36,605 bases of DNA from a virus (lineage: Duplodnaviria > Heunggongvirae > Uroviricota > Caudoviricetes): IMG/VR virus record IMGVR_UViG_3300029219_000015. One strand, 5' to 3'. Shown here piece by piece: positions 2,383 through 28,920 of the stretch; position 1 is the stretch's first letter, and every line of letters starts with the position of its first letter. The notes below the pieces were generated by a model that worked only from the letters and a program-made list of their open reading frames with translations, did not search any database and was not told the DNA's origin. The translations under genes were made by a program, and so were the position numbers.

Positions 2383-3486
2383 ATGAAAAATAGCTTTGAC
2401 AGCGCACGCGCTGCGGAGAACACCTCAAAAGAGGCGATAGAGTATCTCGAAAGAGCATCTCAAATGCAGGCCGTTATGATCTCCCAGGTCAGCAATGACA
2501 TGAGATTCTCGGACGCATTCATGTTATTCACTCGCTTATCTCTGCTGATAACCAGACGTCGGCCAGAGATCGCTGTTCATTGTATTTTGATACATGTTTT
2601 GCCGCACATTGCCGATGTAAAAGTAAGTGACATTAATAGGTTCATGGTGAACCAACTGGTCAACCCACTAATACTGGATGGCAAAATTGTTATGGGCCGC
2701 CGCGTTTTCTCTCTGATGAAGCAGTTCCTTAGCTGGTGCGCCTTCCAGGGGATGATAGACGTGTCACCGTTAAACGATATGTCACTTAACAAAGTTGCCG
2801 GTGGCGCAAAGCCCACACCTCGCGAGCGGAAGCTGACCGACGCAGAGGTATGGGTGTTCTGGAATATATGGGACTACTTCAATGTGTGTGCTGGTACAAA
2901 ATGGGCGGCCAGGCTATGTCTTGTATCCGCAAGACGACCTGACGAAGTACTGCGGGCTAAAAAAAGTGAGTTCAATCTTAAGCGTGGGGTTTGGAATCAA
3001 GGCAAGAGGAACAAATCTGCCCGTGAGCATTCTCTGCCTTTAAGCTCATTAATGCGCACTTGTATTGAAGAGTTGTTCGAATATGGTAAAGACAGCCAGT
3101 GGCTCGTGCCTTCGAATAAAAAAATCGGGAAAGACCTTCCTATGTCTAAAGTGGCAATAGCCCAGGCATTACGTCGTATTCTGGAACGACCAGAACTGAT
3201 GGAGCTTGAGCCATTTACACCCCGAGATTTGCGCCGTACTGCGCGTAGTTACTTCCCAGCATTAGGCATAAGCCAGGAGGTATCACGTAAAATCATGAAC
3301 CACAGTCTTGAGGGGATAGATCGGGTCTACGACCGGCACGATTATATGGACGAGATGCGAGACGCCTTAGAAAGTTTCTCGACGTACATCGCATCAATCG
3401 TAGAGCAACCGGATTTAGACGAAATTGACCACAAATTTAAGGGAGATCGTCTATCAACAGAGCTTATTCGTGTAAATTTTTCATAG
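2383..3486 (+). CDS. Tyrosine recombinase/integrase-like protein, P4-integrase-type C-terminus, apparently lacking an N-terminal arm-binding domain
   Basis: C-terminal motifs ARRPDEV...HSLPLS...FTPRDLRRT...NHSLEGIDRVYDRHDY match the R/K/H-x-x-R/Y pattern of tyrosine recombinases; the box II position that I recall as His is Arg here. Start codon uncertain. Confidence 0.7.
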   Translation: MKNSFDSARAAENTSKEAIEYLERASQMQAVMISQVSNDMRFSDAFMLFTRLSLLITRRRPEIAVHCILIHVLPHIADVKVSDINRFMVNQLVNPLILDGKIVMGRRVFSLMKQFLSWCAFQGMIDVSPLNDMSLNKVAGGAKPTPRERKLTDAEVWVFWNIWDYFNVCAGTKWAARLCLVSARRPDEVLRAKKSEFNLKRGVWNQGKRNKSAREHSLPLSSLMRTCIEELFEYGKDSQWLVPSNKKIGKDLPMSKVAIAQALRRILERPELMELEPFTPRDLRRTARSYFPALGISQEVSRKIMNHSLEGIDRVYDRHDYMDEMRDALESFSTYIASIVEQPDLDEIDHKFKGDRLSTELIRVNFS

Positions 3487-3867
3487 AGACTTTATGGCCT
3501 CAACAACCTTTTGTGATGCGCCTTTCTCTTTACCGAATCGCTCGTTATATGCAGCAAGAACCTGTTTTTCGTCCTCGTTAAGAGGAGCAGTGCCTTCTTT
3601 GTATAAAAATGCTGCGAGTTCGGGTTGGCGTTCTTCCAGCACCATCATCATAAGACGACTTGGCTCAATGCCCAGTGCCAGCGCCAGCGGACGAACCTTA
3701 TCGATAGGCAAAGGAATTTTGCCGCTTTTAATTAAAGAAAGGTTGTTGGCGTTTTTATACCCAATTGTTTTGGCTATCTGGGCCTGGCTCATAGGTGAGG
3801 ATTCAATCAACCCTGCGATAAAAGCAGCGTAGCGACTTTCTATAAATTCAATCTTGTTATCAGACAT
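3481..3867 (-). CDS. Helix-turn-helix (XRE/Cro-CI-like) DNA-binding protein
   Basis: 128 aa; HTH-like segment SQAQIAKTIGYKNANNLSLIKSG; AAAGG 8 nt before the ATG; convergent with and overlapping the recombinase-like gene by 6 nt. Confidence 0.7.
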   Translation of the reverse strand: MSDNKIEFIESRYAAFIAGLIESSPMSQAQIAKTIGYKNANNLSLIKSGKIPLPIDKVRPLALALGIEPSRLMMMVLEERQPELAAFLYKEGTAPLNEDEKQVLAAYNERFGKEKGASQKVVEAIKSL

Positions 3868-4118
3868 GGTTACAACCTTTGCGCGTTCAATTCTCTCTGG
3901 TAAGTGCTTACCGATATTACATCAAAGGTTAGGGTTGTAAAGCTATTATCATTTTTTTCGATAGGCACTTAAAAGACCGGTTAAAGGCCATTGCACGGAG
4001 AAAAATTAGCCCAAAACAGGTAAGAAAATCAACTTGCATATGATATGAATGTATTCAGTATTGATACAAATTTTAGTAGTATTCCTTACCATAGTATAAG
4101 TTAGAATGGATTGATTGA

Positions 4119-4429: not shown

Positions 4430-6538
4430 ATGTCTAAAAAACGTTCCATCAAAGAGGTTCAGGACTTCCGTGACAGTGTAAAACGAGTAGTCGCTCTCCT
4501 TTCAGGTAAAAACATCCCTGTTGCAGAACGAGGGGACGACGCTTATGTACGCTATAACGATGATGGAGAGCCAATTCTCGTAAACATCCCATCAATCCCG
4601 GATAACGCAACACCGGCATTGATGAATGCTGTGCGCGGATTTCTCGATCATGAGGTTGCTCACATTTTGTTTACCGATATTCGTGTGTCCAACAAAATGA
4701 GAGAAAAAGGACGCGTTCCTTCCTGGTCGCTATGGAATGCCTTAGAAGACGTGTTCATCGAGCGAAAAATGGGTCAGGTCTTTAACGGAACAAGACGTAA
4801 TCTGATGGCAACTCAGCGCCTTATAATCGAAAAAGTCTTTAAACCAAAGGCTTCAGAGGCTATTGCTTATTGTGGCAAAGATCAGCGCGCGCTTTTTCTA
4901 AACTTCTTTCTCTGTCCGGTTGTAAGAGCCTGGGATGGCCAAGCACCGTTCGTAGATTTCATGGATGAATATTGGCCTGTCATTGAGAAACCAATTTCAT
5001 TATTAAAAGAACATGGTATCGATGTGGCCGTGCGTAACATGTCTTGCACCGAGGATTGTGTAAAGGTGGCTGCGACCATAGCTAAGATCCTCAAAGACAC
5101 TGAAAGTGAAAGCAAAGGTAAGGAGTCAGCTCCGGGAAAAACTTCCGATCCTTCAGACGCTGACCAGACGGATGCCTCTGGAGAAAACAATGAAGACAAC
5201 GAAGATCATGAGACACCCTCAGCGTTAGATAATCACAAATCTATCAAATCAGAATCACACAGTAAGCACAAACATGATAATAACGACAGTGATGATTCAG
5301 ATAATTCTGAATCATCAGAAACAATATTCGATGATACAGAAAATGATAAAGAGGTATCAGATTCTGGTGCTTCTGATAACGCGGCGTCAGAATCATTTAC
5401 CACTGACCACGAAAAAAGAAAATCGACAGAAGACGGCTCTTCAGACATTCCAACTCCGTCAAAAATGAGTCTGGAAGAGGCTTTAGAGGAGTTGGATAGC
5501 ATGGAAGATGAAGTCGGAGGCATGACAGAAGATGCGCTATCCGAAACGATTAAAAGCGAGTTAACAGAAAGCTCGAAAAGCGAATACAGGCCATACAATC
5601 GCTCATACGACTTCATCGGCTCGATTGATCAGGCAGAAGCCCATATCAAACGGCTTATTAAAACATTCTCCGATATTGATTTAGGTGGATATCCAATCAG
5701 CCGTTATCGCATCGTTCCTGAAGGCAACCAACTCTTCGACAAATATATTGAAAAGCACCTTTCGTCAGGTGTTTCGTCGACGCTGGCAAAAGACCTGGAA
5801 CGTGCAATAGCAAGCAGAAACAGAGTTCAGTTTATACCTGGCCAGCGTCGGGGGCGCATTCATGGTTCAAGTATCTACAGATTAACAATGAATGATGATC
5901 GCGTGTTTCGTAAAAAAGAAGAATCTAAAGCCGTTAACGCCTGTGTTCAACAAGTGATTGATTTATCGGGTTCAATGAGTGGCGAAACGATAAAACTAGC
6001 TCTTGCAAGTGCATATACCATCGCCGATGCACTTGATCGAATAAATGTTCCCAACATTATCACCGGCTTCACTACATTTGGTAGTCATATGGCGGCAGGA
6101 GAACTTAAGGCTGTCAAGTATGAGTTCTCTCGCTTTGAATCTTTAATGCTACCTATCATCAAAAATTGGAATGAAAAGGTAAATTCTCGCGAAGTTCGCT
6201 CACGTATGGGGTGCGTAGGCTACACATTCCCACTTCTTAATAACGTGGATGGTGAAAGCATAGCCAGCCTTGCATCGTTATTTTCCGGTCGCATGGAGGA
6301 CAGGAAGATCATGCTTGTTCTGAGTGATGGCGCGCCGTGGGCTGTTGGGAGAGGTTTTGACGCTCATTTGCGTTCAGTTGCGAAGCAAATTGAAACGCAG
6401 ACTGATATTGATTTGATGGCAATTGGCATCATGACTGACGCACCGGAGAGATTTTACTCAAATCATGCCCTGGTAACGAGCGTTGATAGTCTTGGTTCAT
6501 CTGTAGTTACTGAACTATCTCGTATCATTTTAAAGTGA
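4430..6538 (+). CDS. CobT-like protein with C-terminal von Willebrand A (vWA) domain and long acidic S/D/E-rich linker
   Basis: 702 aa; AAAGGA RBS; MIDAS-like DLSGSMSG motif in the C-terminal third; roughly 160-aa acidic low-complexity region; HEVAH (HExxH-like) near the N-terminus; immediately followed by an AAA+ ATPase gene. Confidence 0.7.
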   Translation: MSKKRSIKEVQDFRDSVKRVVALLSGKNIPVAERGDDAYVRYNDDGEPILVNIPSIPDNATPALMNAVRGFLDHEVAHILFTDIRVSNKMREKGRVPSWSLWNALEDVFIERKMGQVFNGTRRNLMATQRLIIEKVFKPKASEAIAYCGKDQRALFLNFFLCPVVRAWDGQAPFVDFMDEYWPVIEKPISLLKEHGIDVAVRNMSCTEDCVKVAATIAKILKDTESESKGKESAPGKTSDPSDADQTDASGENNEDNEDHETPSALDNHKSIKSESHSKHKHDNNDSDDSDNSESSETIFDDTENDKEVSDSGASDNAASESFTTDHEKRKSTEDGSSDIPTPSKMSLEEALEELDSMEDEVGGMTEDALSETIKSELTESSKSEYRPYNRSYDFIGSIDQAEAHIKRLIKTFSDIDLGGYPISRYRIVPEGNQLFDKYIEKHLSSGVSSTLAKDLERAIASRNRVQFIPGQRRGRIHGSSIYRLTMNDDRVFRKKEESKAVNACVQQVIDLSGSMSGETIKLALASAYTIADALDRINVPNIITGFTTFGSHMAAGELKAVKYEFSRFESLMLPIIKNWNEKVNSREVRSRMGCVGYTFPLLNNVDGESIASLASLFSGRMEDRKIMLVLSDGAPWAVGRGFDAHLRSVAKQIETQTDIDLMAIGIMTDAPERFYSNHALVTSVDSLGSSVVTELSRIILK

Positions 6539-6633
6539 ACAAAACAGCCTTAACGATAAGTAACCACTTACGATAGATAATGATATATTTATATAAGAAG
6601 TTGAACGCTCATTAGAAAACAAAGGAAAAACGC

Positions 6634-7869
6634 ATGACTACTACTGCACTGCAAAATGAAAAAAATCCTTCTGATTACCTTGTTTGCAAGTGGTGCGGAA
6701 AATCATTTCACTATTTTAAGTCCCATGTAGCCAATGGTAATTGCGAGGGCATTCCTGAGTCAGTAAAAGATGCCGATCCTGACACCGTACTGAAAATGTA
6801 CACAACACAGTTTCCAGATGAGCCAACGCTATCGAAAAAGGCACTTGATGCAATTCAAGCTAAACGTGCCGAGCAAAAAAGCGAAATGGCCAAATCATCT
6901 GGCGTGACCAGTAGCCCAGGCTACACAGGCACAGTTGAGTACAAGACAGATCTGGTCGCAGCTCACGAACTGCTAAATGTAACGGTGAAAGAACTCGGAA
7001 CAAAACGTGGGACGCCGCTCATGGTTAGCGTCAACGTCAATACGCCGTTTCCAGAGTTCGTTCCAGAAGTGAAGAAGGGATACGTATATGGCGACTTCGA
7101 ACTGATCAAAGACATTTTCATGATGCTTGAACTTGGCATACCTGGCTATTTGTGGGGTCATGCAGGAACAGGCAAATCTTCATTGCCTACACAACTATGT
7201 GCTTTGCTCAATCGTCCGTTAATCCGTGCCCAACATACAGCATCAATGGAAGAGGCTCATGTTACGGGACAAATTCTGGCGCGTGATGGCTCTACGTATT
7301 TCGAGCCTGGCTTGCTTGCGCTCGCAATGAAGCATGGCTGGGTTTACCTCGCGGATGAATACGACTTTGCGTTTCCACAGATTCTTGGCGTGTATCAGCC
7401 AGTGCTGGAAGGTGAAGCGTTGGTCATCAAAGAGGCGACTCCAGAATGGCGTCGCATTACTCCGCATGAACGGTTTGCTTTCATTGGCACTGGCAACACG
7501 AACGGATCTGGTGATGAAACCGGCTTGTACCAGGGTACAAACATCCAGAACGCCGCGAACTTTTCGCGTTTTGGCATCGTTTCGAATGTGAAATACATGA
7601 GCAAAGAGGCAGAGATCAACATGTTGATAAATGCCGGTATCGTGGATGAATACGCAGAAAAGATGGTTAAGTTTGCCGGTATCGTTCGCGATGGATACGA
7701 AGAACACCTTATCAGTCAGCCAATTGGCCCTCGTGAACTTTTGTTGTCGGCCAAGATTGGAATGATGCGAGGCGACTTTGTGACAGGTATTGAGCGTTCT
7801 TTCATTAACAAACTCCCTTCAGCTTCTGCACAAGCGGCTCGTGAAGTTGTTCAAAAAATATTTGGTTAA
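6634..7869 (+). CDS. CobS-like / MoxR-type AAA+ ATPase with N-terminal Cys-rich zinc-ribbon-like segment
   Basis: 411 aa; Walker A GHAGTGKSS; Walker B VYLADEYDFA; N-terminal CKWCG...C...C; AAAGGAAAAACGC-ATG initiation region. Confidence 0.75.
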   Translation: MTTTALQNEKNPSDYLVCKWCGKSFHYFKSHVANGNCEGIPESVKDADPDTVLKMYTTQFPDEPTLSKKALDAIQAKRAEQKSEMAKSSGVTSSPGYTGTVEYKTDLVAAHELLNVTVKELGTKRGTPLMVSVNVNTPFPEFVPEVKKGYVYGDFELIKDIFMMLELGIPGYLWGHAGTGKSSLPTQLCALLNRPLIRAQHTASMEEAHVTGQILARDGSTYFEPGLLALAMKHGWVYLADEYDFAFPQILGVYQPVLEGEALVIKEATPEWRRITPHERFAFIGTGNTNGSGDETGLYQGTNIQNAANFSRFGIVSNVKYMSKEAEINMLINAGIVDEYAEKMVKFAGIVRDGYEEHLISQPIGPRELLLSAKIGMMRGDFVTGIERSFINKLPSASAQAAREVVQKIFG

Positions 7870-12416: not shown

Positions 12417-12980
12417 TTATGCGCATTTCGCAATATCTTTGCGGCGTTTAATCAGTTTCTCCGCAATTTGCTCTATTTCGTTGAAATCTTTCGAGACGCT
12501 GTTTCGAAGCGCCAGATTCCATTTACTCAAAGTTCGGGCATTTTGGACAATTTGATCGCCCTCTTTAAGTCGTCCGTTATTCATGAGCCATTCAGCCACA
12601 TCAGCCCAATCCCAGAGAGGAGACTGGCCTTTTATGCGTTGTACAGGGCAAGGGAAGTCGCCGCTTCCGCGCTTACCGTCTTTGAGCAACGCCACTGCCT
12701 GGCGAGACAGGTCTGTCAGTTCCGCGATATCGCTTAAGCCCACAAGAGCCGAGTCGACGGATTCAACAATTGCACCGATACCGGCTGATTCAATATTGTC
12801 GACCGCAGATGCGATAGCTGCATCAAGTGATTGTGCTTCGCGGTCAAATTCTACATAGACGGAGTTTCCATATGCGCAAATTAGCGCATCGTCACAGCCG
12901 TTTTGGTACAGCGCGTCTTCCAGTCCTTCCGTCTCATACGATACGCCTGAGAGCGTCAGAGTGAAGTTATAAAGCGCCAT
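12417..12980 (-). CDS. HicB-like antitoxin candidate with HTH-like segment
   Basis: 187 aa from the ATG at 12980 (AAGGA RBS); central LSDIAELTDLSRQAVALL HTH-like stretch; follows a HicA-like gene in the same orientation; perfect hairpin GCCCGCC-AATT-GGCGGGC just 3' of the stop. Confidence 0.5.
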   Translation of the reverse strand: MALYNFTLTLSGVSYETEGLEDALYQNGCDDALICAYGNSVYVEFDREAQSLDAAIASAVDNIESAGIGAIVESVDSALVGLSDIAELTDLSRQAVALLKDGKRGSGDFPCPVQRIKGQSPLWDWADVAEWLMNNGRLKEGDQIVQNARTLSKWNLALRNSVSKDFNEIEQIAEKLIKRRKDIAKCA

Positions 12981-13040
12981 AGTTTTCCTTTGAAGATAGT
13001 TGGACAGTTTCTGCAAAAGGCGGCTAATGCCGCCTTGAAA

Positions 13041-13265
13041 TCATTTACAACGATCAACCATTCGTTTGATCTGTTTGGCATGGTTTTCGGGATTACCCGG
13101 AGTCGACCATACGCTCATTTGGTGAGTTTTGTGTTCACCTTCTGGATTACCGCATCGCAGTCTGCAAAAACAATGTGCAGCACCACCAGCTGCTACCCAG
13201 ATCCAGCCTTTACTTAATGCATAGTCAATGGCTGCTTGAATATGCTTATTCGGATGTTGCTTCAT
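13041..13265 (-). CDS. HicA-like toxin candidate (small mRNA-interferase-like protein)
   Basis: 74 aa; MKQ...SKGWIWVAAGGAAHCFCRLRC...STPGNPENHAKQIKRMV resembles the HicA pattern (G-x-x-V-x-x-G-x-x-H...LR then a basic C-terminus) from memory; GGAGG RBS; canonical promoter upstream. Confidence 0.5.
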   Translation of the reverse strand: MKQHPNKHIQAAIDYALSKGWIWVAAGGAAHCFCRLRCGNPEGEHKTHQMSVWSTPGNPENHAKQIKRMVDRCK

Positions 13266-16370: not shown

Positions 16371-18710
16371 ATGGCAAAAGGAAAATCCGCACTGGCACTT
16401 GCTCTGAAAAAGAAAATCGGTAGCAACGACGAAATTCAGAAAGTAACTCATTGGATTGATACAGGCTTTCCACCGTTAAACAAAGCTATTTCTGGTCGTT
16501 ACGATGGCGGCTTCCCATGTGGTCGTATCGTCGAAGTATTCGGGCCACCAAGCGCGGGGAAATGTGTTACCGCAGACACCATGCTGCTGACGGAGCGTGG
16601 AATGGTAACAGTGAAAGAGTTGTTTGAGATTGAAGGGTACAAAGCGACATGCACTACTCGCGATGTAGAGCATAACGTTGGACTCATCAATGAAAATGGC
16701 GTGATAGAGAAGACCTCACACCTGACATGGAACAACCGTCGCAAATTCAAGCGTATTAAGCTGGCATCAGGCGGTTATATCGAGGCTACGTTCCGTCACC
16801 CAATCCGTGTGGTTGACGACTTAGGTAATGTCGTCTGGCGACATGCTGAAAAAATCAGTGTAGGCGACACGATTCCTTCAATGGTTGGCACACATCAATT
16901 CGGCGATCAGCACCTGGATGCCAATATCGCACAACTGATGGGCTATTTAATTGCTGACGGATACGTGGCCTCTGAAAATTCAGTGAATTTTTCTAACACA
17001 GATCCTTTCATCAAGGATGAGTACTACCGCCTCATTTCGCTGGTATCAGACAAGATGCCAGTTACGAGAAAACATAACGGCTCGGAAGACCATGTGCTGT
17101 TTAGCAAAGAGGTGCGTTCGCTGCTTTTTAAAGAATATGGTCTGGAGTATGAGAAAGCTGCTGGCAAGCAGGTTCCGTTGAGTGTGCGTCGCGCCAATAG
17201 CGAGGCTCAAATTGCATTCCTTCGCGGCTACTTTGAGCTGGAATGCCACGTCAATGATGGTCGCTGCATTGAGGTTGTGAGCGCGAGTGGGCTGCTGCTA
17301 CAGCAAATTCGCCTCATGCTCCTGAATCTGGGGATTACGTCAACTATCTCTGAAAAACACGTCGCGGGTTATGAAAATACATATTACCGGCTGTCATTCA
17401 GTGGCTCTAATTACGACCTTTTTCTGTCAACGATTGGTTTCGAATCTCCGGCACGTTTATCAGTGGCAACCAAACGGGACATTGGTTTTGACCGCACTTA
17501 CTCAGGCTATGTTCCGCACATCAGCGGCTTAGTGAAATCACTCTACGAGTCGCTCACCAAGACCACCCGTGAAGACTACGCTCTGGTAGACCACGTTATT
17601 GGCCGCGGCGATCGTGTCGGAATAGACAAACTGCGAGAAATCTATGTCTCCTTCATTGGCAGAAAGAATCGTTTTAACGAGCATCTGTTTGCACAACTGG
17701 CAGCGGTAATTGGCTCTAACTTGTTCTACGACGAAGTCGTGGCTATTGAGGAAGGTGAAGCACCAACGTTCGACGTAGCGATGCCGGAAACACACTCTTT
17801 CTGGTCTAACGGGATTATCAGCCACAACACATTCCTTGCAACAGCAGCGATGATCTCCGCTCAAAAACAAGATGGTCTGGCGGTATTCCTCGATCATGAA
17901 AACAGTTTTGACGTTGGCCTGGCTGTAGCCAATGGCCTGAACGCAGATGAGGATGACGGTCAGTGGGTATACAAGCAGCCAGATACCTTCGAAGACTCTG
18001 TAGAGTTGATCGGCACAATACTTAAATTGGTTCGTGATGAAGAGCTTATCCCCGAATCAGCACCTATCTGTATCGTGGCTGACTCTCTTGCGTCTATGGT
18101 TCCGAACTCCAAAGCCGAGAAGTTCGAAAAGATGGCTGAAGGCACAGCCAAAGACAAAGATCAGCTAAACATGAACGACAATACGGCACTGGCTCGTGCG
18201 ACGAGTGCGAACTTCCCTACTCTGGCTTTGTGGGCACGCAAATACAACGCCTGCATCATCTTCTTGAATCAGGTTCGCACAAAAATCGGTGTAATGTTTG
18301 GCGACCCTACTACGTCGCCAGGTGGAGATTCACCGAAGTTCTACGCTTCTGTACGTATCCGTCTTGGTGCATCGGTGATGAAGGATGGTAAAGAGAAGAT
18401 CGGCCAGGACGTAGGCGCAGAATGCATCAAAAACAAAGTTGCACCACCGTATGGCAAATGCACCTGGAAATTCTACTTCGATCCTACTCGTGGCCTCGAC
18501 GTTATCGAGTCGCTCGTCGAGTACATGCTGGAAGAAGGATACCTGCCAAAGAACGCCAGCGGTCGAGTAGAAATTGGTGACAAGAAATACACCAAATCAC
18601 AGATCGTCGAGATGTATCGGGAGAAGCCACTAGCTGAAATCATTGCGGCTTTACAGGCAATCGACGACCGGAGATCAAAAGACAATCCCACCGAGTCAGT
18701 AGAAGAGTAA
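16371..18710 (+). CDS. recA: RecA-family recombinase interrupted by an in-frame intein (precursor 779 aa; predicted mature protein about 357 aa)
   Basis: N-extein ends GRIVEVFGPPSAGK and the C-extein starts T, reconstituting Walker A GPPSAGKT; C-extein FLNQVRTKIGVMFGDPTTSPGGDSPKFYASVRIRLG matches the RecA core; AAAGGAG RBS. Confidence 0.85.
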   Translation: MAKGKSALALALKKKIGSNDEIQKVTHWIDTGFPPLNKAISGRYDGGFPCGRIVEVFGPPSAGKCVTADTMLLTERGMVTVKELFEIEGYKATCTTRDVEHNVGLINENGVIEKTSHLTWNNRRKFKRIKLASGGYIEATFRHPIRVVDDLGNVVWRHAEKISVGDTIPSMVGTHQFGDQHLDANIAQLMGYLIADGYVASENSVNFSNTDPFIKDEYYRLISLVSDKMPVTRKHNGSEDHVLFSKEVRSLLFKEYGLEYEKAAGKQVPLSVRRANSEAQIAFLRGYFELECHVNDGRCIEVVSASGLLLQQIRLMLLNLGITSTISEKHVAGYENTYYRLSFSGSNYDLFLSTIGFESPARLSVATKRDIGFDRTYSGYVPHISGLVKSLYESLTKTTREDYALVDHVIGRGDRVGIDKLREIYVSFIGRKNRFNEHLFAQLAAVIGSNLFYDEVVAIEEGEAPTFDVAMPETHSFWSNGIISHNTFLATAAMISAQKQDGLAVFLDHENSFDVGLAVANGLNADEDDGQWVYKQPDTFEDSVELIGTILKLVRDEELIPESAPICIVADSLASMVPNSKAEKFEKMAEGTAKDKDQLNMNDNTALARATSANFPTLALWARKYNACIIFLNQVRTKIGVMFGDPTTSPGGDSPKFYASVRIRLGASVMKDGKEKIGQDVGAECIKNKVAPPYGKCTWKFYFDPTRGLDVIESLVEYMLEEGYLPKNASGRVEIGDKKYTKSQIVEMYREKPLAEIIAALQAIDDRRSKDNPTESVEE
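16563..17828 (+). mobile_element. Intein (422 aa) with LAGLIDADG-type homing endonuclease motifs, inserted in the RecA P-loop
   Basis: Begins with Cys (CVTADTMLL), ends IISHN followed by extein Thr; internal LMGYLIADGYV and FLRGYFELECHV resemble LAGLIDADG motifs; boundaries inferred from extein continuity. Confidence 0.8.
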
Positions 18711-18714
18711 ACAC

Positions 18715-18740
18715 AAGGCGTCCACAGGACGCCTTTTTTA
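18715..18740 (+). terminator. Rho-independent terminator after recA
   Basis: GGCGTCC-ACA-GGACGCC followed by TTTTTT. Confidence 0.8.
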
Positions 18741-18802
18741 TCTCTTGAAAATATATAAGTGCTTACTTATCATTTTCACATAACAACCACATAGGAAAAC
18801 AC

Positions 18803-19003
18803 ATGATCAAAATCTATCTATTGGCAGTAGCCACAGGCCTTTCAGTGGCTCTCATCTACGGATTACTGGTTCCGTCGCTGATTTCTGCAAAGAGTGATTT
18901 GGCCGTCATGCTTGGAGTTCTCGTTGGTTTTGGAGCTCCAGTAATCGGTCTTATTGGTGGTCGTAAGTTTATTAACTCATTAATCAAAGCAAAGGGGAAA
19001 TAA
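18803..19003 (+). CDS. Small two-helix membrane protein
   Basis: 66 aa with two hydrophobic segments; AGGAAAACAC-ATG; stop is 3 nt before the next gene. Confidence 0.6.
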   Translation: MIKIYLLAVATGLSVALIYGLLVPSLISAKSDLAVMLGVLVGFGAPVIGLIGGRKFINSLIKAKGK

Positions 19004-19006
19004 GTA

Positions 19007-19837
19007 ATGAAGAAAGGTTTACTTGCAGTTGCTCTGGCGGCTATTTGCACAATGGGTCTTACTGGCTGTGATCGCGTGGAGCCTGGATACGTTGGCATCA
19101 AAGTAAACAAATTAGGTGAAGACAAAGGGATTGGTGAAGTGGTTGGCGTTGGTCGCCAATGGACAGGTCTTAACACCGAACTTTACGTATTCCCGACCTT
19201 CAAACAAATGAAGACCTACGACGAACCGTTCACATTCCAGATGAGTGACGGTACTGCTATTGGTCACAAAATTGGCGTTGCGTATCTGGTTAATCGTGAC
19301 AAGGTAACGACGGTGTTCCAGACCTATCGCAAAGGCGTAGACGATATCACCGAATCAGATCTGCGTCAGAAAATTGCCGACTCTCTAAACCGTTTGGCCA
19401 GCCGTATGACCACTGACTCATTTATCGACGGTGGTAAGGCACAATTGCTGGACAACGCACTGAAAGATATTCAGAAAGAGATGTCTCCGGTTGGTATTGA
19501 GGTACTGAGCCTGTCATGGGTTGGAAAGCCTGATTACCCAAAAACCGTCATTGAATCTATTAACGCCAAAGTAACGGCTAACCAGCGTACTCTGCAACGT
19601 CAGCAGGAAGTTGAACAGCGTAAAGCTGAGGCGAATATGCTACGTGAACAGGCTAATGGTGAAGCTGATGCTATCCGTGCTCGTGCGCAAGCAGAAGCAG
19701 ACGCCATTCGTCTGCGCGGTGAAGCTCTGCGTCAAAACCCGAACGTTATGGAACTGGAAGCCATCAATAAATGGAATGGCCAGTTACCGCAGTACATGAC
19801 TCAAGGGGCTAACACTCCTTTCATTACAGTGAAATAA
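19007..19837 (+). CDS. SPFH/band-7 (prohibitin-like) domain lipoprotein
   Basis: 276 aa; signal peptide ending in lipobox LTGC; coiled-coil-like Ala/Glu/Arg/Gln-rich C-terminal region typical of SPFH proteins. Confidence 0.65.
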   Translation: MKKGLLAVALAAICTMGLTGCDRVEPGYVGIKVNKLGEDKGIGEVVGVGRQWTGLNTELYVFPTFKQMKTYDEPFTFQMSDGTAIGHKIGVAYLVNRDKVTTVFQTYRKGVDDITESDLRQKIADSLNRLASRMTTDSFIDGGKAQLLDNALKDIQKEMSPVGIEVLSLSWVGKPDYPKTVIESINAKVTANQRTLQRQQEVEQRKAEANMLREQANGEADAIRARAQAEADAIRLRGEALRQNPNVMELEAINKWNGQLPQYMTQGANTPFITVK

Positions 19838-19853
19838 CTCCCCTAAAAAGTTC

Positions 19854-19878
19854 AGGCGTCCAGTTGGACGCCTTTTTT
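19854..19878 (+). terminator. Rho-independent terminator
   Basis: AGGCGTCCA-GT-TGGACGCCT followed by TTTTTT. Confidence 0.8.
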
Positions 19879-19928
19879 ATCGCAATTATCTTATTAAGAA
19901 AACAATTTGTTTAAAAGGATAAGAAAAC

Positions 19929-20354
19929 ATGACAGCTATTAAGAAACTCTACGATGCCGCAAACGTGGCTCTGGATGTTATTGATGATGAAGTAGCAAAA
20001 GGCTTTCCTGAACCTGATTGGGCGCATCAGCTACGAAACGCTATCGCAGAAATGACCCCACCAGATCCAACCCCCGACGAGACAGACTGGCAGCGATTCA
20101 TCCGTATGTACGCTCAGGAAATAGGTCCAACGCCAACGGCAGAGCAGGCAATGCTGCTGAAATACTTCAAAGAGGCGGGAGAGGATTTACCAATTGATGA
20201 CTCAGCATATTGGTTCCACTGCGCATGGCGTAAGTATGACGTGATATTCACACAAGGCATGGGAAGCAAAGATATGGTTGTGTGGCATCTACTCCATATA
20301 GACACAGCCGTTGACAGAGTTATTGAACAGTTTTTCCCTAAACAAGAAGATTGA
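19929..20354 (+). CDS. Hypothetical protein
   Basis: 141-aa ORF with AAAGGA RBS; no recognisable motif. Confidence 0.6.
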   Translation: MTAIKKLYDAANVALDVIDDEVAKGFPEPDWAHQLRNAIAEMTPPDPTPDETDWQRFIRMYAQEIGPTPTAEQAMLLKYFKEAGEDLPIDDSAYWFHCAWRKYDVIFTQGMGSKDMVVWHLLHIDTAVDRVIEQFFPKQED

Positions 20355-20409: not shown

Positions 20410-20685
20410 ATGAGAGTTTTAGTTCGAATCGTTACCAGCACTGTCTATGACGTGTTTCCACTTTTTATGATCAAAGTCGATGGCCTTAACGACGAAGAAA
20501 CTGACGCGCTGATCCAGCGTACTCTTGTTGAATATACAGGTCATGACGCTGATTCAGTGATGGTTGATGATGATGGTGTTTGTTGGCATAACGGCAACTG
20601 TTGGTACGTAGAAGAGACTCAACAAATCAGTGATGAAGATGCCGAACATCTTGAGCGTATTTTAAGCATCAGCACTTTTGAGTGA
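20410..20685 (+). CDS. Hypothetical acidic small protein
   Basis: 91-aa ORF with AAAGGAAAAACAC-ATG. Confidence 0.6.
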   Translation: MRVLVRIVTSTVYDVFPLFMIKVDGLNDEETDALIQRTLVEYTGHDADSVMVDDDGVCWHNGNCWYVEETQQISDEDAEHLERILSISTFE

Positions 20686-28886: not shown

Positions 28887-28920
28887 TTTCATTGATAGGT
28901 AAGTGCTTATCTATTAACAT

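What the first reader, a model, noticed from the sequence alone, without database searches (positions are those of the whole stretch)
18803..19837. Two-gene membrane module: small two-helix protein plus SPFH/band-7 lipoprotein
A 66-aa two-helix membrane protein is followed 3 nt later by a 276-aa protein with a lipoprotein signal (lipobox LTGC) and an SPFH-like body with coiled-coil tail, bracketed by terminators. SPFH proteins organise membrane microdomains; a mobile-element copy could act in superinfection exclusion, receptor masking or membrane-protein quality control.
Basis: partly seen in the sequence, partly recalled or inferred. Interest (0 to 1): 0.5.

Follow-up and report, generated by a model that had tools for sequence, protein, structure and literature searches.

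The report
Phage prohibitin-like lipoprotein with small membrane partner
The two genes are real: a self-contained 1.1-kb cassette on an E. coli phage-plasmid encodes a prohibitin/HflK-like SPFH lipoprotein and a small two-helix membrane partner, a pair also found in many phages and bacteria, with no tested function.

Summary
A 66-aa two-helix protein (18803-19003) lies 3 nt before a 276-aa lipoprotein (19007-19837) with a Band_7/SPFH domain (E 2.6e-30). Two hairpin terminators flank the pair.

The window is an SSU5-like E. coli phage-plasmid, and the genes are orthologues of SSU5_061/062. Additional findings:
- The small protein is a conserved partner of this SPFH clade. It lies immediately upstream in at least 72 of 78 evaluable genomic loci across phyla, and in some genomes the two are fused into one ORF.
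- The clade sits closest to prohibitin and HflK/C and is predicted to face the periplasm from the inner membrane.
- The pair occurs in SSU5-, P1-, P2- and lambda-like temperate phages and in virulent N4-, rV5- and Bruynoghevirus-type phages, among early or DNA-metabolism genes.
- Here it is a 1.14-kb cassette bounded by near-identical terminator repeats, and a natural plasmid has the empty site.

No defence-system model matches, and I found no functional study.

Most likely it builds an HflKC/prohibitin-like assembly on the inner membrane early in phage development. What the phage gains is unknown: FtsH or membrane quality control, or exclusion of DNA entry. Masking of an outer-membrane receptor is unlikely.

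The parts
18716..18742 (+). Left boundary: recA terminator hairpin AGGCGTCC-ACA-GGACGCC followed by TTTTTTATC. It is one of two near-identical direct repeats that delimit the cassette.
   Evidence: Terminator scan. The pattern occurs only twice in the window, against 0 expected. The junction of the natural empty site lies inside this repeat.
18745..18773 (+). Sigma-70-like promoter TTGAAA-17 nt-TATCAT. The near-palindrome TAAGTGCTTA (18756-18765) sits in its spacer and is a candidate repressor operator.
   Evidence: The site matches 10 of 12 consensus positions. The whole 29-nt element is almost invariant in 20 distinct SSU5-like upstream sequences, while the flanks vary. The same 10-mer also lies at 3901 and 28900, upstream of + strand genes.
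18803..19003 (+). Gene for the 66-aa two-helix inner-membrane partner (N-in/C-in). It has a conserved Pro24-x3-Ser28 motif at the periplasmic turn and a basic C-terminal tail. An AGGA ribosome-binding site lies at 18793-18796.
   Evidence: It matches phrog_1130 with E 5e-25 and no Pfam family. P24 and S28 are invariant in 20 diverse homologues. A homologue lies immediately upstream of the SPFH gene in 67 of 80 genomic loci by HMM, plus 5 more found by eye.
19007..19837 (+). Gene for the 276-aa prohibitin/HflK-like SPFH lipoprotein. Features: signal peptide at residues 1-20, lipobox LTGC with Cys21 (19067-19069), Asp22 at +2, Band_7 domain at residues 23-209 (19073-19633), long helix at residues 179-243 (19541-19735), and a conserved C-terminal W256-x-G258-x2-P261. 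The AAGGGG ribosome-binding site at 18992-18997 lies inside the end of the upstream gene.
19854..19881 (+). Right boundary: terminator hairpin AGGCGTCC-AGTT-GGACGCC followed by TTTTTTATC. This is the second copy of the direct repeat.
   Evidence: (conserved in relatives).

Best explanation
This is a self-contained accessory cassette on an SSU5-like phage-plasmid, made of promoter, small gene, SPFH gene and terminator. It encodes a two-component membrane module.

The 276-aa product is exported, lipid-modified at Cys21 and kept at the outer face of the inner membrane (Asp at +2). By homology with prohibitin, HflK/C, erlin, stomatin and QmcA, it should oligomerise through its long helix and conserved C-terminus into a ring or cage over a patch of inner membrane.

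The 66-aa product is a helical hairpin in that membrane. Its conserved Pro-x3-Ser turn faces the periplasm, next to the membrane-proximal SPFH1 domain. It serves as the dedicated membrane-spanning subunit of the assembly. It works like the transmembrane anchors of HflK/C, or like NfeD for stomatin-type SPFH proteins, but it is not a homologue of either. Close spacing and overlapping stops and starts give coupled, roughly equimolar synthesis. In some bacteria the two are one polypeptide.

The module is an old cellular one that phages have captured repeatedly. In phages it sits among early or DNA-metabolism genes, so it most likely acts during phage development rather than as a lysogen-expressed conversion gene. 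My preferred role is to insulate or reorganise inner-membrane proteins, most plausibly by modulating access of FtsH-type quality control to its substrates, as HflKC and prohibitins do.

Shown here: the gene anatomy, the domain and fold, partner conservation and fusion, cassette boundaries and distribution. Inferred: lipidation, inner-membrane retention, oligomeric cage, physical contact of the two proteins, timing of expression and the FtsH link.
For: Domain and fold.
- Band_7 matches with E 2.6e-30.
- Foldseek finds full-length matches to the cage-forming SPFH proteins.
- A family profile hits prohibitin 1 at E 6e-10 over nearly the full length, then prohibitin 2, then HflK/HflC at about 6-8e-7, then QmcA at 3e-6.
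- NCBI names some members 'prohibitin family protein'.

Topology.
- The signal peptide, lipobox and Asp+2 are present, and D22 is at least 90% conserved in 31 enterobacterial members.
- Relatives without a lipobox have one N-terminal hydrophobic anchor.
- Charge bias in the partner places its loop outside the cytoplasm.

Partnership.
- A homologous small ORF lies upstream in almost all 80 viral loci.
- An HMM of the partner hits 67 of 80 genomic loci from Enterobacterales, Dyella, Cupriavidus, Leptospira, Bacteroidota and others.
- Every hit is on the same strand and directly upstream. There is no hit among the other roughly 7,700 ORFs scanned.
- Five more partners were found by eye, giving 72 of 78 evaluable loci.
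- About 17 of 150 cluster representatives are in-frame fusions of partner, lipobox segment and SPFH. Two genome assemblies also carry the fusion, L146 and L136.
- The partner diverges fast (27% identity between the window and P88) while the SPFH protein stays at 77%. Even so, P24 and S28 are invariant.

Cellular origin. Neighbours in non-enteric genomes are housekeeping genes, with no recurring third gene.

Cassette. The two flanking terminator repeats are the only such pair in the window. Plasmid pEco_M21170_105 has recA, one terminator and the downstream gene, with the junction inside the repeat. A Klebsiella SSU5-like phage lacks the module.

Timing.
- In P1-like phages the pair replaces tciABC between the C1-controlled Pban promoters and ban.
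- In P2-like P88 it lies between cox and the replication gene.
- In phiP27 it lies on the int/xis side.
- In virulent N4-like S6, rV5-like FENT2 and Bruynoghevirus DL54 it sits among early or nucleotide-metabolism genes.
- Here its promoter carries the 10-mer that also lies next to the putative repressor gene and upstream of nrdA.
Against: - Nothing here shows lipidation, localisation, oligomerisation, contact between the two proteins, or any link to FtsH.
- The residue at +3 is Arg. From my own knowledge, the strength of Asp+2 retention depends on the +3 residue, and I could not evaluate Arg.
- The C-terminal 20 residues, which should close a cage, are modelled with pLDDT below 50 in the monomer.
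- HflK/HflC equivalog models score far below their cut-offs, 30 against 134 bits, so an FtsH link cannot be assumed by orthology.
- The cassette has its own promoter and terminators. It could therefore also be expressed in the plasmid-prophage state.
- The operator idea rests on only three copies of a 10-mer.
- Six of 78 evaluable genomic loci have no recognisable partner, so the SPFH protein can exist without it.
Confidence: 0.55

Rival explanations
1. Superinfection exclusion at the inner membrane. The periplasm-facing assembly blocks the inner-membrane step of DNA entry by incoming phages, either by covering channel or receptor proteins or by stiffening the membrane. This would protect an already infected or lysogenic cell.
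For: - The pair sits among early genes in many phages, including virulent ones, which is where exclusion genes are usually found.
- It is located at the periplasmic face of the inner membrane.
- It is a dispensable cassette with its own promoter and terminator.
- In Vi01-like phage PhiSH19 the SPFH gene is listed next to a gene annotated as a superinfection exclusion protein (PMC3220722).
- In P1 it swaps with tciABC, which is annotated as tellurite or colicin resistance.
Against: - No PADLOC model matches either protein.
- The same pair is chromosomal, with housekeeping neighbours, in many non-enteric bacteria.
- The SPFH protein is strongly conserved, 77% between P2-like and SSU5-like copies. 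That is not the pattern expected of a protein in direct arms-race contact.
- No paper in the library links SPFH proteins to exclusion or defence.
Confidence: 0.22
2. A general membrane stabiliser during infection. The assembly buffers the inner membrane against stress from phage replication, membrane-protein overproduction or early holin accumulation. This would keep the proton-motive force and the timing of lysis intact, with no specific client such as FtsH.
For: - The SPFH fold and cage-type architecture are present.
- The pair has no third conserved partner and no protease gene nearby.
- It is present in both virulent and temperate phages.
Against: This is not distinguishable from the main explanation with sequence data. 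The conserved Pro-x3-Ser turn and the C-terminal W-x-G-x2-P motif point to specific protein contacts.
Confidence: 0.15
3. A lysogenic-conversion surface or vesicle lipoprotein that acts on the animal host, like the prophage-borne HflK/C-like PM0222 of Pasteurella multocida. That protein was reported in outer-membrane vesicles, signalling through TLR1/2.
For: PMC9872710 reports a prophage-encoded HflK/C-like protein as a virulence factor. The cassette here has its own promoter. The carriers are E. coli, Shigella and Salmonella plasmids from humans and animals.
Against:
- Asp+2 and the membrane-integral partner argue for the inner membrane.
- The family is common in virulent phages and environmental bacteria.
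Confidence: 0.04
4. The small protein is a class II (two-helix) holin or pinholin, and the SPFH protein regulates it.
For: It is 66 aa with two transmembrane helices, N-in/C-in topology and a basic C-terminal tail. That description also fits class II holins. One of 20 homologues has a weak chance-level Pfam match to a holin family (E 0.16).
Against: - No endolysin or spanin gene is adjacent, here or in the other phages examined.
- The pair is conserved in non-phage chromosomal loci.
- The small protein is fused to the SPFH protein in some bacteria.
Confidence: 0.03

Closest known systems
Salmonella phage SSU5 genes SSU5_061 (membrane protein) and SSU5_062 (lipoprotein; 'putative SPFH domain / band 7 protein'), and the same pair in E. 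coli phage Cyrano / plasmid pLF82
   Same: The order, sizes (66 and 276 aa) and position after recA are the same. DNA identity is about 78% to SSU5 and 94-96% to Cyrano. These are orthologues.
   Different: Nothing structural differs. Those records give names only, with no function, and the window's recA carries an intein.
E. coli HflK/HflC (FtsH modulator cage; PDB 7VHP, 7WI3, 9CZ2)
   Same: Both have a periplasm-facing SPFH domain anchored to the inner membrane, and the full-length fold matches (Foldseek E 3e-14). The profile match is E about 6e-7.
   Different: There is one SPFH gene here, not a paralogous pair. The anchor is a lipid rather than an N-terminal helix. Sequence identity is about 17%, and the equivalog models score far below cut-off. 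A separate two-helix partner is present. No link to FtsH has been shown.
Prohibitins, including the prokaryotic prohibitin group SPFH4 of Hinderhofer et al. 2009 (PMC2636767)
   Same: Prohibitin is the best profile match among solved structures, E 6e-10 over nearly the full length. Some members are named 'prohibitin family protein'. The orientation is non-cytoplasmic. The paper notes that no bacterial member had been studied and that no partner gene was known for SPFH4.
   Different: I could not test membership of SPFH4 as that paper defines it. This clade has a conserved two-helix partner, and most members are lipoproteins.
SPFH-NfeD operons (E. coli QmcA-YbbJ, PDB 8Z5G; YqiK-YqiJ)
   Same: Both are two-gene operons of an SPFH protein and a small membrane protein whose helices would lie inside the SPFH ring. 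QmcA is a fold match, E 3.5e-7.
   Different: QmcA faces the cytoplasm. The partner here is 66 aa with no soluble domain and no match to any Pfam family, NfeD included. It works like an NfeD-type partner but is not a member of that family.
Phage morons (self-contained promoter-gene-terminator inserts in temperate phage genomes)
   Same: The cassette has its own promoter-like site and is flanked by terminators. There is presence/absence polymorphism at one site, and it is dispensable.
   Different: Classical morons are expressed from the prophage. Here the promoter carries a candidate operator, and in other phages the pair sits inside early operons.

Membership tests
SPFH / Band 7 superfamily (Pfam PF01145) | Band_7 domain above the Pfam gathering score | tested here: met
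   E 2.6e-30, 106.2 bits against a cut-off of 23.6, over residues 23-209 and covering profile positions 2-176 of 176.
SPFH / Band 7 superfamily (Pfam PF01145) | SPFH1/SPFH2 fold followed by a long coiled-coil helix, as in the cage-forming members | tested here: met
   The AlphaFold model has mean pLDDT 76.8 and a helix at 179-243. Foldseek gives full-length hits to HflK, prohibitin, erlin, HflC, stomatin, flotillin and QmcA.
SPFH / Band 7 superfamily (Pfam PF01145) | Assembly into a large ring or cage oligomer | not testable with these tools
   Only monomer prediction was available. The C-terminal 20 residues have low confidence.
HflK / HflC (FtsH modulators) | Match to the HflK or HflC equivalog models above their cut-offs | tested here: not met
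   TIGR01932 hflC scores 30.2 bits against 134.4. TIGR01933 hflK scores 18.7 bits against 159.4.
HflK / HflC (FtsH modulators) | Two adjacent paralogous SPFH genes | tested here: not met
   There is a single SPFH gene, and the neighbour is a 66-aa non-SPFH protein.
Prokaryotic prohibitins (SPFH4 of PMC2636767) | Closest similarity to prohibitins among SPFH groups | tested here: met
   The family profile against PDB sequences gives prohibitin 1 at E 6e-10 (query 8-240), ahead of HflK/C and QmcA.
Prokaryotic prohibitins (SPFH4 of PMC2636767) | Clustering with the SPFH4 set of that paper, and mutual exclusion with HflK/C in genomes | not tested
   The paper's sequences and whole genomes were not available. 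The enterobacterial hosts of these phages do have HflK/C (own knowledge).
SPFH-NfeD operon | Partner with an NfeD domain (a C-terminal soluble beta-barrel after the membrane helices) | tested here: not met
   The partner is 66 aa, consisting of two helices and a 13-residue tail. It matches no Pfam family at E up to 0.1, and 20 homologues give only chance hits. There is no PDB sequence match.
Bacterial lipoprotein retained in the inner membrane | Signal peptide with lipobox [LVI][ASTVI][GAS]C | tested here: met
   The signal is MKKGLLAVALAAICTMGLTG|C, with LTGC at residues 18-21. G20 and C21 are at least 90% conserved.
Bacterial lipoprotein retained in the inner membrane | Lol-avoidance residue (Asp) at +2 | tested here: met
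   Asp22 is present and at least 90% conserved in 31 enterobacterial members. In other phyla +2 is S, T, D, G or another residue. The effect of Arg at +3 was not evaluated.
Bacterial lipoprotein retained in the inner membrane | Actual lipidation and localisation | not testable with these tools
   This needs an experiment.
Phage moron / accessory cassette | Own promoter and terminator, and presence/absence polymorphism at the same site | tested here: met
   The promoter-like site and terminators are present and conserved in relatives. The empty site is seen in pEco_M21170_105. The module is absent from Klebsiella phage ST13-OXA48phi12.3.
Known anti-phage defence systems (PADLOC-DB 2.0) | Match to any defence-system protein model | tested here: not met
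   Neither protein matches any family at E up to 0.1.
Class II holin | Small two-helix membrane protein encoded in a lysis cassette next to an endolysin | tested here: not met
   The topology fits. However, no lysis gene is adjacent in any of the phages examined, and the gene is conserved in non-phage loci.

The most novel reading that the evidence does not exclude
The pair defines an unrecognised two-component branch of the SPFH world. It is a periplasm-facing prohibitin-like lipoprotein with a dedicated two-helix partner, sometimes made as a single precursor with an internal lipobox. It is ancient in bacteria and has been captured repeatedly by temperate and virulent phages as an early host-takeover or exclusion function acting on the inner membrane, for example by competing with HflKC for FtsH or by closing the DNA-entry route.
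Probability: 0.3. Interest if true: 0.65.

Novelty: new variant of a known kind. Interest (0 to 1): 0.42.

Why it matters
SPFH proteins (prohibitin, stomatin, flotillin, HflK/C) are now known to build cages on membranes. What most bacterial ones do is still unclear, and the prokaryotic prohibitin-like group has no studied member and no known partner (PMC2636767).

This cassette is a compact, dispensable two-gene version carried by common E. coli phage-plasmids. About 5% of complete E. coli genomes have a copy. It is found in 373 of 50,697 phage records, including virulent phages.

If the two proteins form a cage with the hairpin inside, the pair would be a simple model for how SPFH cages are anchored and loaded. 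Its repeated capture by phages would point to a host-membrane function that phages need early in infection.

For annotation, the small partner gene is missing from several reference records, including RCS47 and phiP27. The frequent label 'serine protease' for the SPFH gene has no support here.

Tried and rejected
- PADLOC scan of both proteins: no hit.
- NCBIfam: only sub-threshold HflC/HflK/FloT matches.
- Pfam and PDB sequence searches with the small partner and 19 homologues: only chance hydrophobic matches. I rejected NfeD, holin and any other named family for the partner.
- Word-based homologue search with the small protein: only close E. coli and Shigella 'hypothetical proteins'.
- First attempt at a distant genome scan with a 50-sequence alignment failed because no block was conserved enough. 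A 12-sequence alignment worked.
- Search with fused protein P0158: its close relatives are unfused, so fusions are sporadic and do not form one clade.
- Literature searches on SPFH with prophage, superinfection exclusion, anti-phage defence, phage-plasmid, and band 7 with lipoprotein. These gave only annotation-level mentions and the Pasteurella PM0222 study, whose sequence I could not compare.
- Recurring third gene next to the pair in non-enteric genomes: none found.
- The 'serine protease' label used in many records: rejected. No protease family matched except a weak phrog_11227 hit on the coiled-coil region, E 2.7e-4.
Full report

Yes. The + strand carries a 66-codon ORF at 18803-19003 and a 276-codon ORF at 19007-19837, with only GTA between the stop and the next ATG.

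The small protein has two hydrophobic stretches, and AlphaFold folds it as a helical hairpin, helices 2-28 and 32-65. In 20 homologues the two ends hold 99 Lys/Arg against 28 Asp/Glu, while the five-residue turn holds 7 against 14. Both ends therefore face the cytoplasm and the turn faces the periplasm.

The only hydrophobic stretch in the large protein is an N-terminal signal peptide ending in the lipobox LTGC, with Asp after the Cys. Its body matches Pfam Band_7 at E 2.6e-30. The model (pLDDT 76.8) shows the two SPFH subdomains and a 65-residue helix. Foldseek aligns nearly the whole chain to HflK, prohibitin, erlin, HflC, stomatin, flotillin and QmcA.

Hairpin terminators with T-runs sit at 18715-18735 and 19854-19873. 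A TTGAAA-17-TATCAT promoter-like site sits at 18745-18773.

**2. Where does the window come from?**

The region is 94-98% identical to about 108-kb E. coli phage-plasmids (CMS-2020a, PhiR41_1, Cyrano) and about 78% identical to Salmonella phage SSU5. Those records annotate the same two genes after recA as 'membrane protein' and 'lipoprotein / SPFH domain protein'.

The cassette is in 203 PLSDB plasmids, nearly all non-mobilisable E. coli plasmids of about 110 kb. Megablast detects a copy in 283 of 5,426 complete E. coli genomes, at 195 plasmid places and 101 chromosomal places.

**3. The small protein is a conserved partner.**

In the 80 closest viral contigs a homologous small two-helix ORF almost always precedes the SPFH gene. 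P2-like phage P88 has the pair too. Its SPFH protein is 77% identical to the window's, but the partner is only 27% identical.

An exhaustive search found 2,816 cluster representatives of the SPFH protein at E up to 1e-3, and 195 at E up to 1e-30. Most are 270-300 aa with a lipobox or a single N-terminal anchor. About 17 of the best 150 are 320-390 aa, because a homologue of the small partner is fused in frame in front of the lipobox segment. Two such fusions are visible as single ORFs in genome assemblies, an Iamiaceae MAG and another MAG, and one of them has no internal Met.

I built an HMM of the partner and scanned all 7,793 ORFs of at least 35 aa in 80 genomic loci. These came from Enterobacterales, Xenorhabdus, Morganella, Dyella and relatives, Cupriavidus, Leptospira, Bacteroidota and others. 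It hit 67 loci, once each, always on the same strand and directly upstream. Two of these were fusions and two were separated from the SPFH gene by an IS element. It hit nowhere else. Five of the 13 misses have a recognisable partner by eye and two are cut off, so at least 72 of 78 evaluable loci have the pair.

Pro24 and Ser28, at the end of helix 1, are invariant in 20 diverse partners. The partner belongs to no Pfam family and has no solved relative.

**4. What kind of SPFH protein is it?**

A profile of 50 diverse members finds prohibitin 1 best among solved structures (E 6e-10, almost full length). Prohibitin 2 follows, then HflK and HflC (about 6-8e-7), then QmcA. HflK/HflC equivalog models are far below their cut-offs.

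This fits the 'prokaryotic prohibitin' idea of Hinderhofer et al. They predicted a periplasmic orientation, knew of no studied member and found no partner gene for that group (PMC2636767). I could not test membership of their set.

Several lines together place the SPFH domain on the periplasmic face of the inner membrane:
- the signal peptide and lipobox;
- the nearly invariant Asp+2 in the enterobacterial clade;
- the transmembrane anchors of lipobox-less relatives;
- the membrane-integral partner.

This is an inference, not a demonstration.

**5. Cellular origin and repeated capture by phages.**

In non-enteric genomes the neighbours are housekeeping genes (Suf, succinate dehydrogenase and others). 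They include no phage genes among the top families and no recurring third gene.

Among phages, tblastn finds full-length homologues in 373 of 50,697 records. Several lineages carry the pair:
- SSU5-like phages.
- P1-like phages (RCS47 and P1 variants), where the pair replaces tciABC between the C1-controlled Pban promoters and ban.
- P2-like P88, in the early operon.
- Lambdoid Stx phages such as phiP27, on the int/xis side.
- Burkholderia phi1026b.
- Virulent N4-like, rV5-like and Bruynoghevirus phages.

Vi01-, FelixO1- and phiCbK-like phages have the SPFH homologue, but I did not check them for the partner.

In every phage locus I examined, the partner HMM hit a small ORF next to the SPFH gene or one to two genes upstream. 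This ORF is unannotated in RCS47 and phiP27.

**6. The cassette in this window.**

The two flanking terminators share the stem AGGCGTCC...GGACGCC and the tail TTTTTTATC, and they are the only two such sites in the window. Plasmid pEco_M21170_105 has recA, one terminator with the left-type loop, and then the right flank. The junction falls inside the repeat. So about 1.14 kb is either inserted here or deleted there. A Klebsiella SSU5-like phage also lacks the module. The module is therefore dispensable for maintenance of the plasmid.

The promoter element is almost invariant in 20 distinct SSU5-like upstream sequences, although the flanks vary. Its spacer holds the near-palindrome TAAGTGCTTA. 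The same 10-mer lies at two other places:
- 3901, between a divergent transcriptional-regulator gene (3481-3867) and the long + strand early operon;
- 28900, before nrdA.

At each site a -10-like hexamer follows two bases later. This suggests a shared operator and early, repressor-controlled expression. It rests on three sites only.

**7. Mechanism.**

The best-supported picture is an HflKC/prohibitin-like assembly of the lipoprotein on the periplasmic face of the inner membrane. The hairpin protein acts as its membrane-spanning subunit, made in step with it or as one precursor. It plays the role NfeD plays for QmcA without being related to NfeD.

The benefit to the phage is not established. 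I favour modulation of inner-membrane protein quality control of the FtsH type, for two reasons: the closest solved relatives all do this in the same topology, and the module is cellular in origin. Exclusion of incoming DNA at the inner membrane is the main rival, and general membrane stabilisation comes next. Masking of an outer-membrane receptor, a holin role and a host-directed virulence role are unlikely, for the reasons given under the rivals.

**8. Novelty and verdict.**

The genes themselves are known and named in databases, and they are ordinary for this plasmid family. As far as the searchable literature shows, what has not been described is:
- the conserved, sometimes fused, non-NfeD partner;
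- the breadth of the pair across bacteria and phage lifestyles;
- the clean cassette boundaries.

I rate it a new variant of a known kind, of moderate interest.

Noticed in passing
window 3901-3910, 18756-18765, 28900-28909: The exact 10-mer TAAGTGCTTA (near-palindrome TAAG-NN-CTTA) occurs three times on the + strand, and each copy is followed two bases later by a -10-like hexamer. The sites are: next to a divergent transcriptional-regulator gene (3481-3867, - strand) at the head of the long + strand operon, in the SPFH cassette promoter, and upstream of nrdA. It is a candidate operator or promoter motif of the phage-plasmid's early genes.
   Followed up: partly
window 16371-18710: The RecA/UvsX-like recombinase gene is interrupted by an intein with a LAGLIDADG homing endonuclease. 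Pfam matches are RecA E 3e-36, LAGLIDADG_3 E 2e-17 and Intein_splicing E 2e-11. SSU5 and the Klebsiella relatives have an uninterrupted recombinase gene of about 1.08 kb.
   Followed up: partly
L172 (NZ_CP133922.1, pEco_M21170_105) 1480-1620, compared with window 18680-18790 and 19825-19945: This is a natural empty site. recA is followed by a single terminator and then directly by the DUF7238 gene, and the junction lies inside the 27-nt terminator repeat that flanks the cassette in the window.
   Followed up: yes
L083 (phage RCS47) 4425-4661; L166 (phage phiP27) 3262-3450: The small partner gene is present but not annotated in these reference phage records. In both it overlaps the start of the SPFH gene. 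Many records label the SPFH gene 'serine protease', for which I found no support.
   Followed up: yes
L083 and L084 (P1-like phages), between upl and ban: P1 variants carry either tciA-tciB-tciC or the small-partner/SPFH pair at the same place in the ban region. Two different membrane-related accessory modules therefore swap at one locus.
   Followed up: partly
L089 and L090 (Shigella flexneri and E. coli chromosomes) 5027-6828: In these chromosomal (apparently prophage) copies about 770 bp of IS-like sequence separates the partner gene from the SPFH gene, and an IS3-type element lies just upstream.
   Followed up: partly
L088 (Yersinia pestis NCTC5923, 108-kb contig) 5797-6828: A 94% identical copy of the SPFH protein, with an intact partner gene directly upstream, lies on a contig of about 108 kb in Y. 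pestis. The phi1026b record also cites a Y. pestis protein (NP_395392) as similar. The pair is therefore present on an SSU5-related replicon in Y. pestis. I did not identify which plasmid.
   Followed up: no
window 19929-20354 and 20410-20685: The two genes just downstream (DUF7238, E 5e-38, and a 91-aa ORF) are also absent from the Klebsiella SSU5-like phage. The stretch after recA is therefore a variable region of this phage-plasmid family.
   Followed up: partly
window 12417-13016 and 13041-13265 (- strand): By synteny with phage Cyrano these two ORFs are probably a HicB antitoxin and HicA toxin pair lying between the DNA polymerase III alpha gene and the UvsY/SSB/exonuclease/RecA block. 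I did not check this by domain search.
   Followed up: no
L146 5752-6903 and L136 5656-6837: The fused versions keep the lipobox Cys inside the polypeptide, after two transmembrane helices. If signal peptidase II cuts there, one precursor would yield the same two products as the two-gene form. This is speculation and was not tested.
   Followed up: no
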